The notes under the pieces: generated by a model
The model's database searches: none
What the model was told of the DNA's origin: nothing
Seen by the model: only the letters and a program-made list of their open reading frames with translations
Assembly (NCBI GenBank): GCA_951406725.2
Contig: OX597818.1
Coordinates: 48,918,001 to 48,982,000 of the forward strand
Length of the DNA stretch: 64,000 nt
Reading direction: 5' to 3'
Source of the DNA: Octopus vulgaris
Lineage: Eukaryota
Part shown: positions 1,459 to 64,000 of the stretch, in pieces
How positions within the stretch are numbered: the first letter of the stretch is position 1
Layout of the letters: the number at the start of each line of letters is the position of its first letter
Program-made: the position numbers and the translations under genes

Positions 1459-1734
1459 GAATCAGTACAACATGTCAGTTCAACACCTATCATCCCTCCA
1501 GAACATTGTGATTCCCATGTTTCAAAATACTCAAGTAATATGGATATATGTCGCATTTGTCACTGCGAAGGAGAAACAGAAGCTCCACTTGTAGCGCCAT
1601 GCATATGTTCTGGCAGTTTGCGATGGGTGCACCAAGCTTGTCTACAAAAATGGATTAAAAGTGCAGATACTAAATCATGTGAACTATGTAAATTTGAATT
1701 CATCATGACAACGAAAGTAAAGCCATTCCAAGAG
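1459..1734 (+). CDS. MARCHF8: RING-CH exon of a MARCHF1/8-like E3 ubiquitin ligase (5' exons lie outside the window or were not recognised)
   Basis: ttgcAG acceptor and GAG|GTGAGA donor, phase 0-0; DICRICHCEG...APCICSGSLRWVHQACLQKWIKSADTKSCELCKFEF is a C4HC3 RING-CH. Confidence 0.93.
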
Positions 1735-15695: not shown

Positions 15696-16070
15696 TGGGA
15701 GAGACTACAGATGACTTCAGTTGAGAAAAGAAAGATAATCTGTTCAGTGACATTCCATATTGTTGCAATAACATGTGTAGTATGGTCTCTCTATGTGCTG
15801 ATTGATCGGACCACTGAAGAAATGAGACGGGGAGTACTCGAGTGGCCATTTTGGACAAAAATCATTGTTGTAGCTATTGGTTTCACTGGAGGTCTTGTTT
15901 TTATGTATGTTCAATGCAAAATGTATGTAAATTTATGTCATAGATGGAGAGCATACAACAGAGTAATCTACATTGAAAATATTTATGAACATCCATCAGA
16001 GAGCAAATTGTGTGAAAGTTGTAAGAAAGACTCATCTTCCAGTCTATGTGGAGATGTACAGCTAGCCTGA
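15696..16070 (+). CDS. MARCHF8: Terminal coding exon of MARCHF1/8-like ligase (two TM helices and cytoplasmic tail)
   Basis: Long polypyrimidine tract + CAG acceptor; in frame with the RING exon (KPFQE|WERLQMT); [24 protein letters not shown] and [28 protein letters not shown] are the MARCH1/8 TM signatures; TGA stop. Confidence 0.93.
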
Positions 16071-29215: not shown

Positions 29216-30012
29216 ACTTTTTACATAATTACAGAGCTGGTCTTTTCATAGTATGGAATGTTTTTTCTCTTGGATGTATTAAAGCCATTTCTTAAGCAGA
29301 AGTTTCTGTTTTCTGTGATTCTTAAAGTGTGTTCCACCAGTTAACTTTCTCAGGCTGTGTAGTTCTGCAGTCGCTTTTGCAGTGTCTCTACATCACTGCA
29401 GGGAGATTTTTATGGACTATTAAAATGTTCAAGCTGTTGTTGATGACTGCATTTGGAAGACCATGATACTGCCAAACCAAGATATTTATGAAAAGTCTTA
29501 AAATGTGGATCAGCTCAGTTTTTTTTCAGTTTGTTAATGTCTAACATTTGTTAATCTGTTTCATTAATCAAGTTTTCTTTAGGTAAGTCATTTTGGAATA
29601 TTTTCGTCTCTCAAGTATCCTGTCCCCTCTCACTGTTATCATTTAACATCTGCTTTTCATGCTAGTATGGGTTGGATGATTTGACAAGATCCAGCTAACT
29701 ATGGGGCTGTGCCAAGCTCCTGTGTCTGCTTTGGTGGGGTTTCTACAGCTAGATGCCCCTCCTAATGCCAACTACTTTACAGTGTGCACAGGGTACTTTT
29801 TTTCTCATGCCTCACCCCTTGTACTATTGAGGTTGTTGAATAACTTGCAAGACAAAAAGAATAAATAAAAAAAATCTCACATCATTCATTAAATAATCAT
29901 AGAGTTACATTCAAATCCTTTATAGATTTATCTTAATACAGTTCTATATTTAAGAGATGAGGAATTATGTACTTTATTTACATTTGACGGATATTTGTCC
30001 TCGTATGTTGTT

Positions 30013-30058
30013 AACACAACGTTTCGGCTGATATACCCCCCAGCCTTCCTCAGGTGTC
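30013..30058 (-). ncRNA. Minimal type I hammerhead ribozyme, intact core
   Basis: gacac CUGAGGA a GGCUG gggggu auau CAGCC GAAA cg UU guguu. Confidence 0.75.
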
Positions 30059-30116
30059 TTGGGGAAATTTCGAACCTGGGTTCTCATTCCGAAGGTATTT
30101 TTCGATGTTGTTGTTG

Positions 30117-30161
<45 letters not shown>

Positions 30162-30279
30162 TCACTGCCTGGAATCGAACTCAGAATCTTGGGGTTCGAT
30201 TCCAGGCAGTGACCTGAATAATAATAATAACATAGAAAAATACCTCCAGAATGAGAACCCAGGTTTGAAATTTGCCCAA

Positions 30280-37275: not shown

Positions 37276-37641
37276 TCTCTTATTATAAAAGGCAGATTTT
37301 ATCTGCCTCCCTTTGGGAGTTATACAAATCTACAATATAGGATTTCTTCAATTACAATTTACCTGGCATTTTTGAGAGTACAATGCATCGCGTCATGCCA
37401 GGTCCAGTTTTGAAAATTTAAACTCCAATTAAGCAAAATTTACAGAAAACTCACATTCTGGTGTGTGTGTCAAATGCTTTTCTTAGTCTGGTTTACAGCA
37501 CACGCAAACGCACACACACAGTGGGCAGCGAATAAAATGAAAGTAATTTACTTACTGTAGTGAGTGATTCTTTCACTCTGCCTCCCACTTCCTCTTTCAA
37601 CACATAGACACGCAAATATCTAAATAAAATTGTAAGCTATC

Positions 37642-37690
<49 letters not shown>

Positions 37691-39172
37691 TGAGGGTGCG
37701 CGCGTGTGTGTGTGTGTGTGTGCGTGTGCGTGAGTGTGTGACAGGAAAGTTTTTTACGACGAATATAAGTAGCAGAAAGATAAGACAGTAAGGTGTGATT
37801 TGAGGGAGATTTGGCTGCTAAATCTACCATGTCTAGCTGCCATGTAGGGGTCTTCCTCATAGGCTCATACATACATATATACATAGATAAGACAGTAAGG
37901 TGTGATTTGGGGGAAATTTGGCTGCTATTTCTACCAGGTCTAGCTACCATGTAGAGGTCCCCCTCATTGGCTCATATATATATACATACATAAGACAGTA
38001 AGGTGTGATTTGAGGGAGATTTGGCTGCTGTTTCTACCTGGTCTGTTAGGCCTTCTCATGTAAACTCAAGCTTTCTCATGCCTTGAACATAAGACCAAAG
38101 TAGAGAACGTATTCTTTAATTCTTCTGCTTTTTCCAGCCATTGGTCTGTGGCCATGCTGGGGCAATGCCTTGAAGAATTGTAGTTTAATGAATCAACTCC
38201 AGTTTTATTTTTGTAAGCATTGTACTTATTCTATCTGTTTCCTTTGTCAAACCACTAGGTGACAGGGATGTAAACAAACCAACATTCGTTGTCAAGCAGT
38301 GGTGGAGGACAATCACAAGCACAGACACGCACACACACACACATACATGCAGACACATATACACACATACATACATACATACATATATATATATGTGTGT
38401 GTATATATATATTGCAGCGTGGAAGGTGTTTGTAAGCCATTTAAGAAACACACAAAAACCGTTAGATTCACTTCAACATTTAAATTTAATTTGCCAAAAT
38501 ATTTTCCTCGCTTTGAGACCGCGACCTGTTCACTGACAAAAATATCGTGCTAACAGGTCGCGGTCTCAAAGCGACGAAAATATTTTGACAAATTAAATTT
38601 AAATGTTGAAGTGAATCTAACGGTTTTTGTGTGTTTCTTACATGGCTTATAAACACCTTCAACGCTGCAACTGTTTTCGTTCCAGCACACGATCTCAGAT
38701 CAAGTCACTTGCTATGCAAGTACATCTCTGTAACTATATATATATTTATATATATATATATATGTATATTGGTAAAAACAGTAAGATAACAAAAGAAAGA
38801 AAGAGACCTCAATATTATGTAAATAGAGGAAATCTTTATATATAAAAGTGAGGTTGTGTGTCTGTCTCCTACGATTTAGATTCCTAACTACTCCCACATT
38901 TTGCGGTGCAGTTTAACCAAAACCGGGTATCTTATAGTCGTGATTCATATCGAGACCGTCTGGGTATTAGCGCGCGTCTACGATTTAAAAAAAAATTTAC
39001 CACCAATTTTTCCCATTTTTAATCCATTTTAATCCAACGTAAAAAGCTACAGTAACACCCCTCCCCCTTTGTGGTTAGCCATATTGAGATGGCTATTATA
39101 CTTTACATCTCTAAAAATGCTTATATAATTATTTCCCTTACAAACCCGAGCAACGCCGGGCGATACTGCTAG
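37276..39172 (+). mobile_element. Composite Helitron, copy 1 (1897 bp)
   Basis: A|TCTCTTATTATAAAA start; CCCGAGCAACGCCGGG hairpin and CTAG|T end; internal H1 element begins with its own TC at 38833. Confidence 0.85.
38412..38671. repeat. Fold-back (~119-bp arms) carried inside the composite Helitron
   Basis: TTGCAGCGT..GCGACCTGTT / AACAGGTCGC..ACGCTGCAA; mirrored at ~40959-41217. Confidence 0.9.
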
Positions 39173-39366
39173 TGAGTGTATGTTTACTTTATTACTAACA
39201 CAAGCCACTACGGTTATTTAATGAAAGTCTTCCTCAAATCACTCTCTCTCTCGCTATTTTCACTCACTCTTAGCTCTTAGCTTCCCATACATTTTACTCA
39301 TGTATCTATCAGCGTCATAGACAGAATACTTTCAGTTTAGTCTTCCTCAAATCACTCTGTCGCTAT

Positions 39367-39639
39367 TTACTTTCATTTTATTCGTTGCCCACTGTGTGTG
39401 TGCGTTTGCGTGTGGTGTAAACCAGACTAAGAAAAGCATTTGACACACACACACCAGAATGTGAGTTTTCTGTAAATTTTGCTTAATTGGAGTTTAAATT
39501 TAAAAAACTGGACCTGGCATGACGCGATGCATTGTACTCTTAAAAATGCTAGGTAAATTGTAATTGAAGAAATCCTATATTGTAGATTTGTATAACTCCC
39601 AAAGGGAGGCAGATAAAATCTGCCTTTTATAATAAGAGA
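39367..39639 (-). mobile_element. Third copy of the Helitron 5' module
   Basis: Matches 42291-42561 and ends at the same ATAATAAGAGA|T. Confidence 0.85.
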
Positions 39640-40400: not shown

Positions 40401-42146
40401 CTAGCAGTATCGCCCGGCGTTGCTCGGGTTTGTAAGGGAAATAATTATATAAGCATTTTTAGAGATGTAAAGTATAATAGCCATCTCAATATGGCTAACC
40501 ACAAAGGGGGAGGGGTGTTACTGTAGCTTTTTACGTTCTGAGATTTAATAATAAATTTTAGAGAGTTACTTCCCTTATATATGTCAAAAATGGATTAAAA
40601 ATGGGAAAAATTGATGGTAAATTTTTTTAAAATTGTAGACTCATCGTAGACGCGCGCTAATACCCAGACGGTCTCGATATGAATCACGACTATAAGATAC
40701 CCGGTTTTGGTTAAACTGCACCGCAAAATGTGGGAGTAGTTAGGAATCTAAATCGTAGGAGACAGACACACAACCTCACTTTTATATATAAAGATTTCCT
40801 CTATTTACATAATATTGAGGTCTCTTTCTTTCTTTTGTTATCTTACTGTTTTTACCAATATACATATATATATATATATATAAATATATATATAGTTACA
40901 GAGATGTACTTGCATAGCAAGTGACTTGATCTGAGATCGTGTGCTGGAACGAAAACAGTTGCAGCTTTGAAGGTGTTTATAAGCCATTTAAGAAACACAC
41001 AAAAACCGTTAGATTCACTTCAACATTTAAATTTAATTTGTCAAAATATTTTCGTCGCTTTGAGACTGCGACCTGTTAGCACGATATTTTTGTCAGTGAA
41101 CAGGTCGCGGTCTCAAAGCGACGAAAATATTTTGGCAAATTAAATTTAAATGTTGAAGTGAATGTAACGCTTTTTGTGTGTTTCTTAAATGGCTTACAAA
41201 CACCTTCCACGCTGCAATATATATATACACACATATATATATATGTATGTATGTATGTATGTGTGTATATGTGTATGCATGTATGTGTGTGTGTGTGCGT
41301 GTCTGTGCTTGTGATTGTCCTCCACCACTGCTTGACAACGAATGTTGGTTTGTTTACATCCCTGTCACCTAGTGGTTTGACAAAGGAAACAGATAGAATA
41401 AGTACAATGCTTACAAAAATAAAACTGGAGTTGATTCATTAAACTACAATTCTTCAAGGCATTGCCCCAGCATGGCCACAGACCAATGGCTGGAAAAAGC
41501 AGAAGAATAAAAGAATACATTCTCTGCTTTGGTCTTATGTTCAAGGCATGAGAAAGCTTGCGTTTACATGAGAAGGCCTAACAGACCTGGTAGAAACAGC
41601 AGCCAAATGTCCCTCAAATCACACCTTACTGTCTTATGTATGTATATATATATGAGCCAATGAGGAGGACCTCTACATGGTAGCTAGACCTGGTAGAAAT
41701 AGCAGCCAAATTTCCCCCAAATCACACCTTACTGTCTTATCTATGTATATATGTATGTATGAGCCTATGAGGGAGACCCCTACATTGCAGCTAGACATGG
41801 TAGAAATAGCAGCCAAATCTCCCTCAAATCACACCTTACTGTCTTATGTATGTATATATATATGAGCCAATGAGGGGGACCTCTACATGGTAGCTAGACC
41901 TGGTAGAAATAGCAGCCAAATTTCCCCCAAATCACACCTTACTGTCTTATCTATGTATATATGTATGTATGAGCCTATGAGGAAGACCCCTACATGGCAG
42001 CTAGACATGGTAGATTTAGCAGCCAAATCTCCCTCAAATCACACCTTACTGTCTTATCTTTCTGCTACTTATATTCGTCGTAAAAAACTTTCCTGTCACA
42101 CACTCACGCACACGCACACACACACACACACACGCGCGCACCCTCA

Positions 42147-42181
<35 letters not shown>

Positions 42182-42561
42182 TCACACACACGCACGTTAG
42201 CTTACAATTTTATTTAGATATTTGCGTGTCTATGTGTTGAAAGAGGAAGTGGGAGGCAGAGTGAAAGAATCACTCACTACAGTAAGTAAATTACTTTCAT
42301 TTTATTCGCTGCCCACTGTGTGTGTGCATTTGCGTGTGGTGTAAACCAGACTAAGAAAAGCATTTGACACACACACCAGAATGTGAGTTTTCTGTAAATT
42401 TTGCTTAATTGGAGTTTAAATTTTAAAAACTGGACCTGGCATGACGCGATGCATTGTACTCTTAAAATTGCTAGGTAAATTGTAATTGAAGAAATCCTAT
42501 ATTGTAGATTTGTATAACTCCCAAAGGGAGGCAGATAAAATCTGCCTTTTATAATAAGAGA
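40401..42561 (-). mobile_element. Composite Helitron, copy 2 (2161 bp)
   Basis: Reverse complement of 37276-39172 with the same termini and an AT target; extra 210-bp minisatellite unit. Confidence 0.85.
41089..41139 (+). ncRNA. Minimal hammerhead ribozyme variant with G3:C8 core
   Basis: uuuguca GUGAACA g GUCGC ggucucaaa GCGAC GAAA auau UU uggcaaa. Confidence 0.6.
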
Positions 42562-54030: not shown

Positions 54031-55019
54031 ACTGCCACATCTGACTGGCCTGGTGCAGCCTTCGGGCTTCCCAGACCCCAGTTGAACCGTCCAACCCATG
54101 CTAGCATGGAAAGCGGACGTTAAACGATGATGATGATGATGATGATGATGATATTATTATTAAACCTCCTAAACATTTATAAAATAAAATACTAAAAAAT
54201 GCAAGCAAGTTATTACAGAGGGGGAGGTATATTCTCCATGACACAGTGAGTAGCTTGTTCCCCAATTTGAACCTGCATCAAGCATATTTGGACATTACAA
54301 TTTTACTCAGTTATGTTCACTTCTTTTGTCTGGCAGACACAAAATAAGATAATAGAAATTTTTATTTCTATTTTTTTTAAAGCATTCACTTCTTACAAGG
54401 TCCTTAGACCACTGAAAACGTAAGTGCTACAAGAATAAAATGGACGTTTGACAGAAGTCAATAGGTGACGATGTACATTAGACTTAAAAGACTGGAGGTC
54501 ATATTGGAGAGGAACACAAGACTGTGGAAAGGAATTCCAAAGTTCAGAGGTGCGAGGGAAGAAATCCTGATGTTATCTCAATAGATAAACTGATCAGTCC
54601 TTTTTATTCTTTTACTTGTTTCAGTTATTTGACTGTGGCCATGCTGGAGCACTACCTTGAAAAAAAATAGGTTGTTCTAAAGTAGAGAGCAATGCCATGC
54701 CCATGTGTGTTAGAAAGATCGATTGATCTCTTCTGTCCATGTGAAGGGATGTGCGAACCGCCACTCCATTTTCGCAACTCAGATATTTTCATATGGAACA
54801 GACAGAAAATATTTCTTATATCCTGTGACTTCACATGCCTTTGAAGTAAAAACAAAAACATCAAAAAAATTTTTAGTCCCCCAAATCCAGTTGTTGCTGT
54901 TGAGTTCTATGTTGGCCTTTACTAGGCATACAAATGACCGAAAATATTACAAACTGACTTTCCCATCTAATTTTTTCAACCTGGACAGATCCAGCCTCTC
55001 ACATATACCCAATGATGAT

Positions 55020-63756: not shown

Positions 63757-63773
63757 GCATATATATATATATA

Positions 63774-63903
63774 CTGTTGTGTTTGGGGAGAGTCATTTTC
63801 ATTTTGTGCCTTATAATTTAACACACTCACCAGTAAAATTTTACTGGTGAGTGTGTTAAATTATAAGGCACAAAATGAAAATGACTCTCCCCAAACACAA
63901 CAG
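63774..63903. repeat. Perfect 130-bp spacerless palindrome
   Basis: 65/65 complementary pairs around AAAA|TTTT at 63838/63839. Confidence 0.95.
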
Positions 63904-64000
63904 AATATGCTTCAACACATGAACTCACATAAAGAATCTTGCAAACCAAATCCAAAAACGAAATATATATACTATCAAACCTTTCTTTCAAGATATATGG

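What the first reader, a model, noticed from the sequence alone, without database searches (positions are those of the whole stretch)
41089..41139. Natural hammerhead ribozyme variant with a swapped G3:C8 core pair
Seen: a complete type I hammerhead architecture with 7-bp stem I (UUUGUCA/UGGCAAA), perfect stem II (GUCGC/GCGAC), GAAA, palindromic AAUAUU stem III and a UUU triplet. The core reads GUGAACA instead of CUGANGA. Known: C3 and G8 form a tertiary Watson-Crick pair, and C3G/G8C double mutants are compensatory. Inference: this is covariation rather than decay, and searches for CUGANGA would miss the family. The sister copy (38490-38540, minus) keeps the swap but has lost the stem II closing pair.
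Basis: partly seen in the sequence, partly recalled or inferred. Interest (0 to 1): 0.85.

Follow-up and report, generated by a model that had tools for sequence, protein, structure and literature searches.

The report
Swapped-core hammerhead from a Penelope retroelement
This 51-base stretch has the layout of a self-cutting hammerhead RNA with two paired core letters swapped, a swap carried by about 8,500 retroelement copies in this genome and matched by other paired swaps in related elements, so the family's motif likely still cuts, although this copy is a passenger in another transposon and is predicted to be locked in a long hairpin.

Summary
The motif is at the stated coordinates. It is the terminal-repeat (pLTR) hammerhead of a Penelope-like retroelement with a C-terminal endonuclease. 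Walking out from related copies reached RT and GIY-YIG coding sequence joined to the same repeat. A 16-base pattern finds G3:C8 in 8,481 places and G3·G8 in 292; the 343 C3:G8 hits are mostly another family. An older family also has G3:C8. Across 10 related families, positions 3 and 8 always pair (C:G 4, U:A 4, G:C 1, A:U 1), so this is covariation, not decay. Rfam misses it. This copy is one arm of a head-to-head, 5'-truncated insertion captured by a young non-autonomous Helitron (620 junction matches). It is predicted to be buried in a 119-bp hairpin, and the 'sister' is another Helitron copy. Against a strict need for cleavage, a G3·G8 subfamily also made new copies. Cleavage is untested. 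I found no natural G3:C8 hammerhead in the papers I could read, but several key ones were not held. The scan noted G3:C8 candidates before, in two other genomes.

The parts
41089..41139 (+). Minimal type I hammerhead motif with G3:C8 core pair
41096..41103 (+). Core strand G3-U4-G5-A6-A7-C8-A9 plus extra G (9a); G3=41096, C8=41101
   Evidence: family counts; covariation
41104..41122 (+). Stem II (5 bp, G10.1:C11.1) with 9-nt loop
41123..41132 (+). G12-A13-A14, palindromic helix III (41126-41131, predicted to pair between two copies) and U17; predicted cut 41132/41133
   Evidence: dimer model from PMC4209133
41079..41218 (+). Right arm: 5'-truncated pLTR copy ending at the family's short 3' end (no tail)
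40896..41077 (-). Left arm: inverted pLTR copy truncated inside the core (no complete hammerhead), ending at the long 3' end with the ~58-nt tail, next to (TA)n
40401..42561 (-). Non-autonomous Helitron carrying the hairpin as a passenger (5'-TC at 42561, 3' hairpin + CTAG at 40401, inserted between A and T)
   Evidence: 620 exact junction matches
40401..40794 (-). Inner shorter Helitron-like unit that supplies the 3' end (own TC start at 40794)
37276..39172 (+). Second copy of the same Helitron
38490..38540 (-). Sister hammerhead copy inside the second Helitron; C11.1 changed to G

Best explanation
The motif is the minimal type I hammerhead in the pseudo-LTR of a Penelope-like retroelement family whose core pair reads G3:C8 instead of C3:G8, likely kept by selection for a cleavage-competent fold, while this particular copy is a Helitron passenger predicted to be inactive in place. 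Shown: the motif's anatomy; its position in the repeat that follows the endonuclease and precedes the ORF of full-length elements; G3:C8 as the family state; Watson-Crick pairing at 3:8 in all ten related families aligned; head-to-head truncated insertions with two 3' ends; capture by a Helitron. Inferred: in element transcripts two motifs (5' and 3' pLTR, or two RNAs) pair through the palindromic helix III. G12 then acts as general base and the 2'-OH at position 8, held by the G3:C8 pair, as general acid, cutting after U17, slowly and perhaps with help from the element's protein. Short cDNAs started at two internal sites give the solo and inverted copies. One inverted copy was later captured and spread by a Helitron, where the 119-bp hairpin outcompetes the hammerhead fold.
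For: Family state: 8,481 G3:C8 versus 292 G3·G8. The 343 C3:G8 hits are mostly another family (9 of 10 loci read). None of the 100 listed (of 147) non-G3 family hits has both C3 and G8. Older family C: G3 27 of 38, C8 30 of 38, N7 changed to C, shorter loop II, a 4-nt palindrome instead of 6, and a T-A to G-C change in stem I. Sister family B (about 51% amino-acid identity, tree support 1.0) has C3:G8 at the same place. Candidates were found just 3' of the ORF in 7 of 11 related metagenome elements, all paired at 3:8 although pairing there was not required. Structure count on 10 representatives: 3:8 paired 10 of 10, 93% of cells paired, covariation score 0.84 against 0.21 shuffled and at most 0.22 slid. 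Element link: the repeat runs into an RT-GIY-YIG ORF in L151; GIY-YIG Pfam E=1e-4. Penelope-type insertion marks: long+short 3' ends in 21 of 26 head-to-head rows (23 distinct loci). Helitron ends: A|TC 24 of 24, CTAG|T 28 of 28. Engineered C3G/G8C partly rescues a Penelope hammerhead (PMC11167929).
Against: No cleavage data. A G3·G8 subfamily made several new copies (linked loop variant 8 of 16 versus 1 of 83; 13 of 34 intron- or RT-linked copies are G3·G8, a sample enriched for contig C16). Family B carries C9 instead of A9 (20 of 35 rows share one C9 core, 1 has A9). Hammerhead mutants did not affect insertion in vitro, and no RNA ends were seen at the site, in the Anolis element. Only 1 of 26 inverted partners starts at the predicted cut. 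Family B and D stem I is irregular, and the A3:U8 case (L261) has a weak stem I. The G-C to A-U change in stem II inside family A is explained by CpG decay and is not counted. Pfam RT models did not hit this family's RT pieces; RT identity rests on motifs and homologues.
Confidence: 0.78

Rival explanations
1. Vestigial ribozyme: the motif descends from a hammerhead, but cleavage is no longer needed in this lineage and G3:C8 was fixed in a master copy and amplified passively.
For: A G3·G8 subfamily made new copies (292 genome hits). Family B has C9. Hammerhead mutants do not block insertion in vitro. Penelope hammerheads cut poorly in vitro.
Against: Two transversions that restore a pair, kept across families A and C while N7, loop II and helix III length changed. 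10 of 10 families are paired at 3:8, with four pair types.
Confidence: 0.2
2. The hammerhead fold is kept for a non-catalytic role, such as binding the element's protein or controlling splicing or translation in the 5' leader, with cleavage incidental.
For: The motif sits about 20 nt after a splice-acceptor-like boundary and about 70 nt before an ATG that opens the ORF. The Anolis hammerhead needs protein and is dispensable for insertion in vitro.
Against: The invariant residues are the catalytic ones (U4, G5, A6, G12, A13, A14, A15.1, U16.1 in 10 of 10), and the 3:8 pair is a feature of the active fold.
Confidence: 0.12
3. This very locus works as a ribozyme that cuts host or Helitron transcripts.
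For: The motif is intact here. Some Helitron copies lie in tandem about 2.2 kb apart on one strand, which could supply a partner.
Against: In the full hairpin both stems have probability 0.000 and the hammerhead fold costs +61 kcal/mol. The copy is 5'-truncated and antisense to the Helitron. The 99-100% identity among copies reflects recent amplification.
Confidence: 0.06
4. A chance look-alike created by a fold-back (MITE-like) palindrome.
For: The motif overlaps a 119-bp inverted repeat that folds far better (-75.9 versus -13.2 kcal/mol), and its own z-score is only -2.1.
Against: The same motif occurs in solo copies without any hairpin (30 solo versus 26 paired rows), in RT-linked repeats and, with other paired cores, in distant relatives. 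Reversed controls gave 0 hits.
Confidence: 0.01

Closest known systems
Minimal type I hammerheads of metazoan Penelope-like elements (Cervera and de la Pena 2014, PMC4209133)
   Same: Located in the pLTR; extra nucleotide between 9 and 10.1; G10.1:C11.1; GAAA; palindromic helix III for dimers; U17 common; inverted pairs of motifs nearby.
   Different: Their consensus core is CUGANGAH, and the only covariant pair named is U3:A8. None of the representatives in the Fig. S3 text that I read has G3:C8. Here the extra nucleotide is G in all 10 families.
Natural U3:A8 core variants (Perreault et al. 2011, PMC3088659)
   Same: Natural compensatory change at the 3:8 tertiary pair.
   Different: A pyrimidine-purine pair reached by transitions. 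G3:C8 needs two transversions and reverses the pair, putting C at the general-acid position.
Engineered C3G/G8C hammerheads (Anolis Poseidon element, PMC11167929; review PMC8495972; PMC3884650)
   Same: The same core sequence change; partial rescue of cleavage.
   Different: Laboratory mutants. Here it is the natural state of thousands of copies and of at least two families.
C-terminal-endonuclease Penelope-like clades Neptune and Nematis (Craig et al. 2021, PMC8557442)
   Same: RT followed by a CX3CxxC linker and GIY-YIG with CCHH; pLTR, tail, inverted 5'-truncated copies, (TA)n targets.
   Different: Linker spacing resembles Nematis more than Neptune, but the RT motif after the 'GG' differs from the Nematis rows seen. 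The clade was not assigned by a tree with reference elements.
Non-autonomous Helitrons with captured fragments
   Same: 5'-TC, 3' hairpin + CTAG, A|T insertion, tandem copies, captured mosaic DNA.
   Different: The captured piece includes a ribozyme-bearing retroelement hairpin. No autonomous helper was sought.

Membership tests
Minimal type I hammerhead (PLE type) | Literal core CUGANGA | tested here: not met
   GUGAACA at 41096-41102
Minimal type I hammerhead (PLE type) | Watson-Crick pair between positions 3 and 8 | tested here: met
   G:C here; 10 of 10 family representatives paired, 4 types
Minimal type I hammerhead (PLE type) | U4-G5-A6, A9, G12-A13-A14, A15.1:U16.1, G10.1:C11.1 | tested here: met
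   All present; all but A9 invariant in alignment A3; sister copy lacks C11.1
Minimal type I hammerhead (PLE type) | Extra nucleotide between 9 and 10.1; palindromic helix III; NUH site; helix I closing | tested here: met
   G41103; AAUAUU; UUU; 7 bp; features per PMC4209133
Minimal type I hammerhead (PLE type) | Self-cleavage after position 17 | not testable with these tools
   No bench assay; all runs offered were contigs, which cannot show RNA ends
Rfam hammerhead families | Match to an Rfam covariance model | tested here: not met
   No hammerhead hit at E<=1 in the window or E<=10 in 41060-41170
Penelope-like element, C-terminal endonuclease | ORF with RT and C-terminal GIY-YIG carrying CCHH | tested here: met
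   L112, L151; PF01541 E=1.1e-4; RT by motifs and 127 homologues, Pfam RT not hit
Penelope-like element, C-terminal endonuclease | pLTR both upstream (running into the ORF) and downstream of the ORF | tested here: met
   Repeat joins ORF in L151; repeat after endonuclease in 12 of 17 downstream stretches fetched, 2 of them partial
Penelope-like element, C-terminal endonuclease | Inverted 5'-truncated copies, optional tail, (TA)n targets | tested here: met
   Two 3' end clusters about 58 nt apart; long+short in 21 of 26 rows; flanks
Penelope-like element, C-terminal endonuclease | Intron in the pLTR | tested here: inconclusive
   Branch-point and acceptor-like sequence, and 5' starts clustered at that boundary (43 of 128 units); no spliced junction or donor shown
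Neptune or Nematis clade | CX2-5CxxC linker before the endonuclease; RT phylogeny with reference elements | tested here: inconclusive
   Linker present, spacing Nematis-like; no reference elements in my tree
Naiad or Hydra clade | N-terminal endonuclease (Naiad); CCHH absent (Hydra) | tested here: not met
   Endonuclease is C-terminal and has CCHH (definitions)
Non-LTR retrozyme | Tandem 170-400 nt repeats each with a hammerhead | tested here: not met
   Copies are solo or head-to-head; no tandem array covers the motif
Non-autonomous Helitron (carrier) | 5'-TC, 3' hairpin + CTAG, insertion between A and T | tested here: met
   24 of 24 and 28 of 28 ends found in 30 loci; feature list recalled from general knowledge
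Non-autonomous Helitron (carrier) | Autonomous Rep-helicase partner | not tested
   Not searched

The most novel reading that the evidence does not exclude
A lineage of Penelope-like elements uses all four Watson-Crick pairs at the hammerhead's 3:8 position, and the G3:C8 form is an active natural ribozyme in a family with thousands of copies. CUGANGA-based surveys would then have undercounted animal ribozymes, and some retroelement groups said to lack hammerheads may carry swapped cores.
Probability: 0.5. Interest if true: 0.68.

Novelty: new variant of a known kind. Interest (0 to 1): 0.52.

Why it matters
Whether Penelope hammerheads do anything in vivo is open: they cut poorly in vitro, and mutants did not block insertion in the one reconstituted system. 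Repeated compensatory change at a tertiary pair of the active site is evolutionary evidence of selection on the catalytic fold, and it supplies natural variants (C:G, U:A, G:C, A:U, and an unpaired G·G subfamily) for a direct test. It also shows a blind spot: about 8,500 cores in one genome are missed by Rfam and by CUGANGA descriptors. The specific locus matters little; it shows a Helitron spreading a ribozyme-bearing retroelement fragment.

Tried and rejected
Rfam: no hammerhead match; only miRNA-type hairpin noise near the motif. First BLAST: 40 of 780 candidates scored, all 99-100% identical Helitron copies, so no use for covariation. Apparent stem II covariation inside family A was rejected as CpG decay. 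Naiad partner considered and rejected, since the endonuclease is C-terminal. My early label 'Neptune' was withdrawn after seeing linker spacing. MITE and retrozyme readings rejected. Expression: no RNA holder on record was listed; the four runs laid were contigs and show no ends, strand or level, and no spliced joint. No enrichment of copy starts at the cut site (small, biased sample). No hammerhead candidate in 4 of 11 outgroup loci (L255, L267, L272, L275), two of which end about 110 nt or less after the ORF. No RT was found beside 9 family C-type or 10 family D loci, so these two are placed by repeat similarity only. The IQ-TREE run timed out; FastTree was used, with weak deep nodes and only a midpoint root, so the ancestral pair is not established. 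One row of alignment A2 had wrong coordinates and was replaced in A3. Family C was left out of A3 because its shorter helix III misaligns. Papers not held: Lunse et al. 2017, Przybilski and Hammann 2007 (117), de la Pena 2010 (118), and two ids entered from recall (72, 73).

Full report
Observation. One G (41103) lies between A9 and stem II. The sister at 38490-38540 (-) has lost C11.1. Alone, the 51-mer folds only modestly better than shuffles (z -2.1). Rfam reports no hammerhead. A descriptor left free at positions 3 and 8 gives 2 hits in the window and 0 in the reversed window.

Local context. The motif lies in the loop and right arm of a 119-bp inverted repeat. That hairpin sits inside a 2.16-kb unit shared by the 30 best genome hits that were fetched. 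The unit has Helitron ends: 24 of 24 5' ends found read A|TC and 28 of 28 3' ends read hairpin-CTAG|T. The window copy runs 42561 to 40401 on the minus strand and the sister 37276 to 39172 on the plus strand (the Helitron features are recalled knowledge). A junction-specific pattern gives 620 matches with 0 controls, and 98 of the first 100 listed have G3:C8. The sister is therefore not independent evidence, and identity among these copies reflects recent spread. In a transcript covering both arms the hammerhead stems have probability 0.000 and cost +61 kcal/mol. They return (0.7-0.99) only if the left arm is absent. Exons of a RING-variant gene lie at 1.5 and 15.7 kb, far from the motif.

Source family (A). 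Patterns that exclude the Helitron junction reveal an older dispersed family (820 matches, 0 controls; by my count 89 of the first 100 have C8). Its units are about 205 nt. They start at a splice-acceptor-like boundary or carry the upstream intron-like sequence, and they end at one of two sites about 58 nt apart (128 units), often in (TA)n. Of 69 loci examined, 26 rows (23 distinct loci) had a head-to-head partner, 30 were solo and 13 were not scored; 21 of the 26 pair a long end with a short end. These are the tail and inversion marks described for Penelope-like elements (PMC8557442, passages; PMC11167929, parts 1-2 of 4). The window hairpin is such a pair. Walking upstream from intron-bearing copies reached a GIY-YIG endonuclease with CCHH and a CX3CxxC linker (Pfam E=1.1e-4) and then RT motifs. 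In L151 the repeat runs into the ORF, with the hammerhead about 70 nt before an in-frame ATG, so the core is non-coding. Pfam RT models did not hit these RT pieces. 127 homologues of 841 residues or more were found, unnamed except one 'hypothetical protein'. Linker spacing resembles Nematis more than Neptune (supplement passages); the clade is not settled.

Is it covariation? Genome counts with one 16-base context: G3:C8 8,481, G3·G8 292, C3:G8 343, controls 0-2 each. Nine of 10 C3:G8 loci read belong to a different family, D. Among 147 family hits without G3, none of the 100 listed has both C3 and G8. Contigs from four runs with four organism labels show C at position 8 in 92-98% of depth and no variant at position 3 above 5% (contigs only, RNA status a guess). 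An older family, C (copies about 80% alike), has G3 in 27 and C8 in 30 of 38 rows, both in 23. Here 3 duplicate rows and 11 non-homologous rows of 52 were dropped. N7, loop II length, palindrome length (4 versus 6) and one stem I pair (T-A to G-C) have changed. Sister family B, about 51% identical in protein and grouped with A at support 1.0, has C3:G8 at the same place but C9. Among related elements in metagenome contigs, 7 of 11 examined have a candidate just after the ORF on the sense strand: C:G twice, U:A four times, A:U once (weak stem I). Pairing at 3:8 was not a search condition, and reversed controls gave 0 for the stricter descriptor. On an alignment of 10 representatives (A, B, D and the seven), 3:8 is paired in 10 of 10, 92.9% of all cells pair, and the covariation score is 0.84 against 0.21 shuffled and at most 0.22 for slid partners. 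The stems were partly selected for by the descriptors, so the 3:8 result is the cleanest.

Evidence against a strict need for cleavage. A G3·G8 subfamily shares a loop variant (8 of 16 versus 1 of 83, P=6e-7) and occurs at several insertions with different junctions, so an unpaired master made copies. It forms 13 of 34 intron- or RT-linked copies in a sample enriched for contig C16, but only about 3% of pattern hits genome-wide. Family B has C9. In the Anolis element the double swap rescues cleavage only partly, cleavage needs protein, mutants do not impair insertion in vitro, and no RNA ends were seen at the site. Only 1 of 26 inverted partners starts at the cut. No RNA evidence could be had.

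Mechanism. Shown: anatomy, position, family state, covariation, insertion geometry, Helitron capture. Inferred from established hammerhead chemistry (G12 base, 2'-OH of residue 8 as acid; PMC6155905 and PMC8495972, passages) and the dimer model: two motifs pair through the palindrome and cut after U17, slowly and perhaps protein-assisted, to process element transcripts. I put cleavage competence of the family motif at about 0.65 and activity of this locus at about 0.06.

Novelty. Natural U3:A8 is known (PMC3088659, section 8 and passages). G3:C8 appears in what I read only as an engineered change. The Fig. S3 alignment text of PMC4209133 (supplement parts 1-2 of 3; one supplementary file not searchable) shows none. 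Full-text searches found no natural case. Lunse 2017, Przybilski 2007, de la Pena 2010 and two further papers were not held, and bioRxiv supplements are closed, so prior mention cannot be excluded. Two unchecked scan notes describe G3:C8 candidates behind Penelope-like RTs in other genomes. The host is probably an octopus, from recalled repeat content; this was not tested. Verdict: a new variant of a known kind, well supported by comparison and untested for activity. Interest 0.52.

Noticed in passing
window 30003-30060 (-), core at 30053: A second, canonical (C3:G8) minimal hammerhead with 6-bp stem II and a 4-nt palindrome, beside an inverted repeat at 30147-30227; likely the pLTR of another Penelope-like family.
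   Followed up: partly
window 54659-54780 (-): U6atac snRNA match, 61.8 bits against a gathering score of 33.
   Followed up: no
window 1498-1731 and 15696-16070 (+): Exons of a RING-variant (MARCH-type) E3 ligase gene; RINGv E=8.7e-17.
   Followed up: partly
window 39174-39639 (-): A third, partial Helitron 5' end directly against the 3' end of the sister Helitron.
   Followed up: partly
window 41583-42059 and 37780-38044: A 107-bp tandem repeat carried inside the Helitron, with copy number varying between Helitron copies.
   Followed up: no
window 63771-63905: A near-perfect palindrome of about 60 bp per arm, MITE-like.
   Followed up: no
L111:2810-2860 and L170-L199 (family B): Abundant sister family (1,804 BLAST candidates) whose hammerhead has C9 instead of A9; the same C9 occurs in metagenome locus L257.
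   Followed up: partly
L261:2803-2845: Candidate with A3:U8, the fourth Watson-Crick pair, with weak stem I, from one contig.
   Followed up: partly
L112, L113, L114, L115, L103, L119 (contig C16): Long and intron-bearing copies of family A, including the G3·G8 subfamily, are concentrated on contig C16.
   Followed up: partly
L212 and L220: Two more diverged G3:C8 motifs with different loops and helix III, perhaps further families.
   Followed up: no
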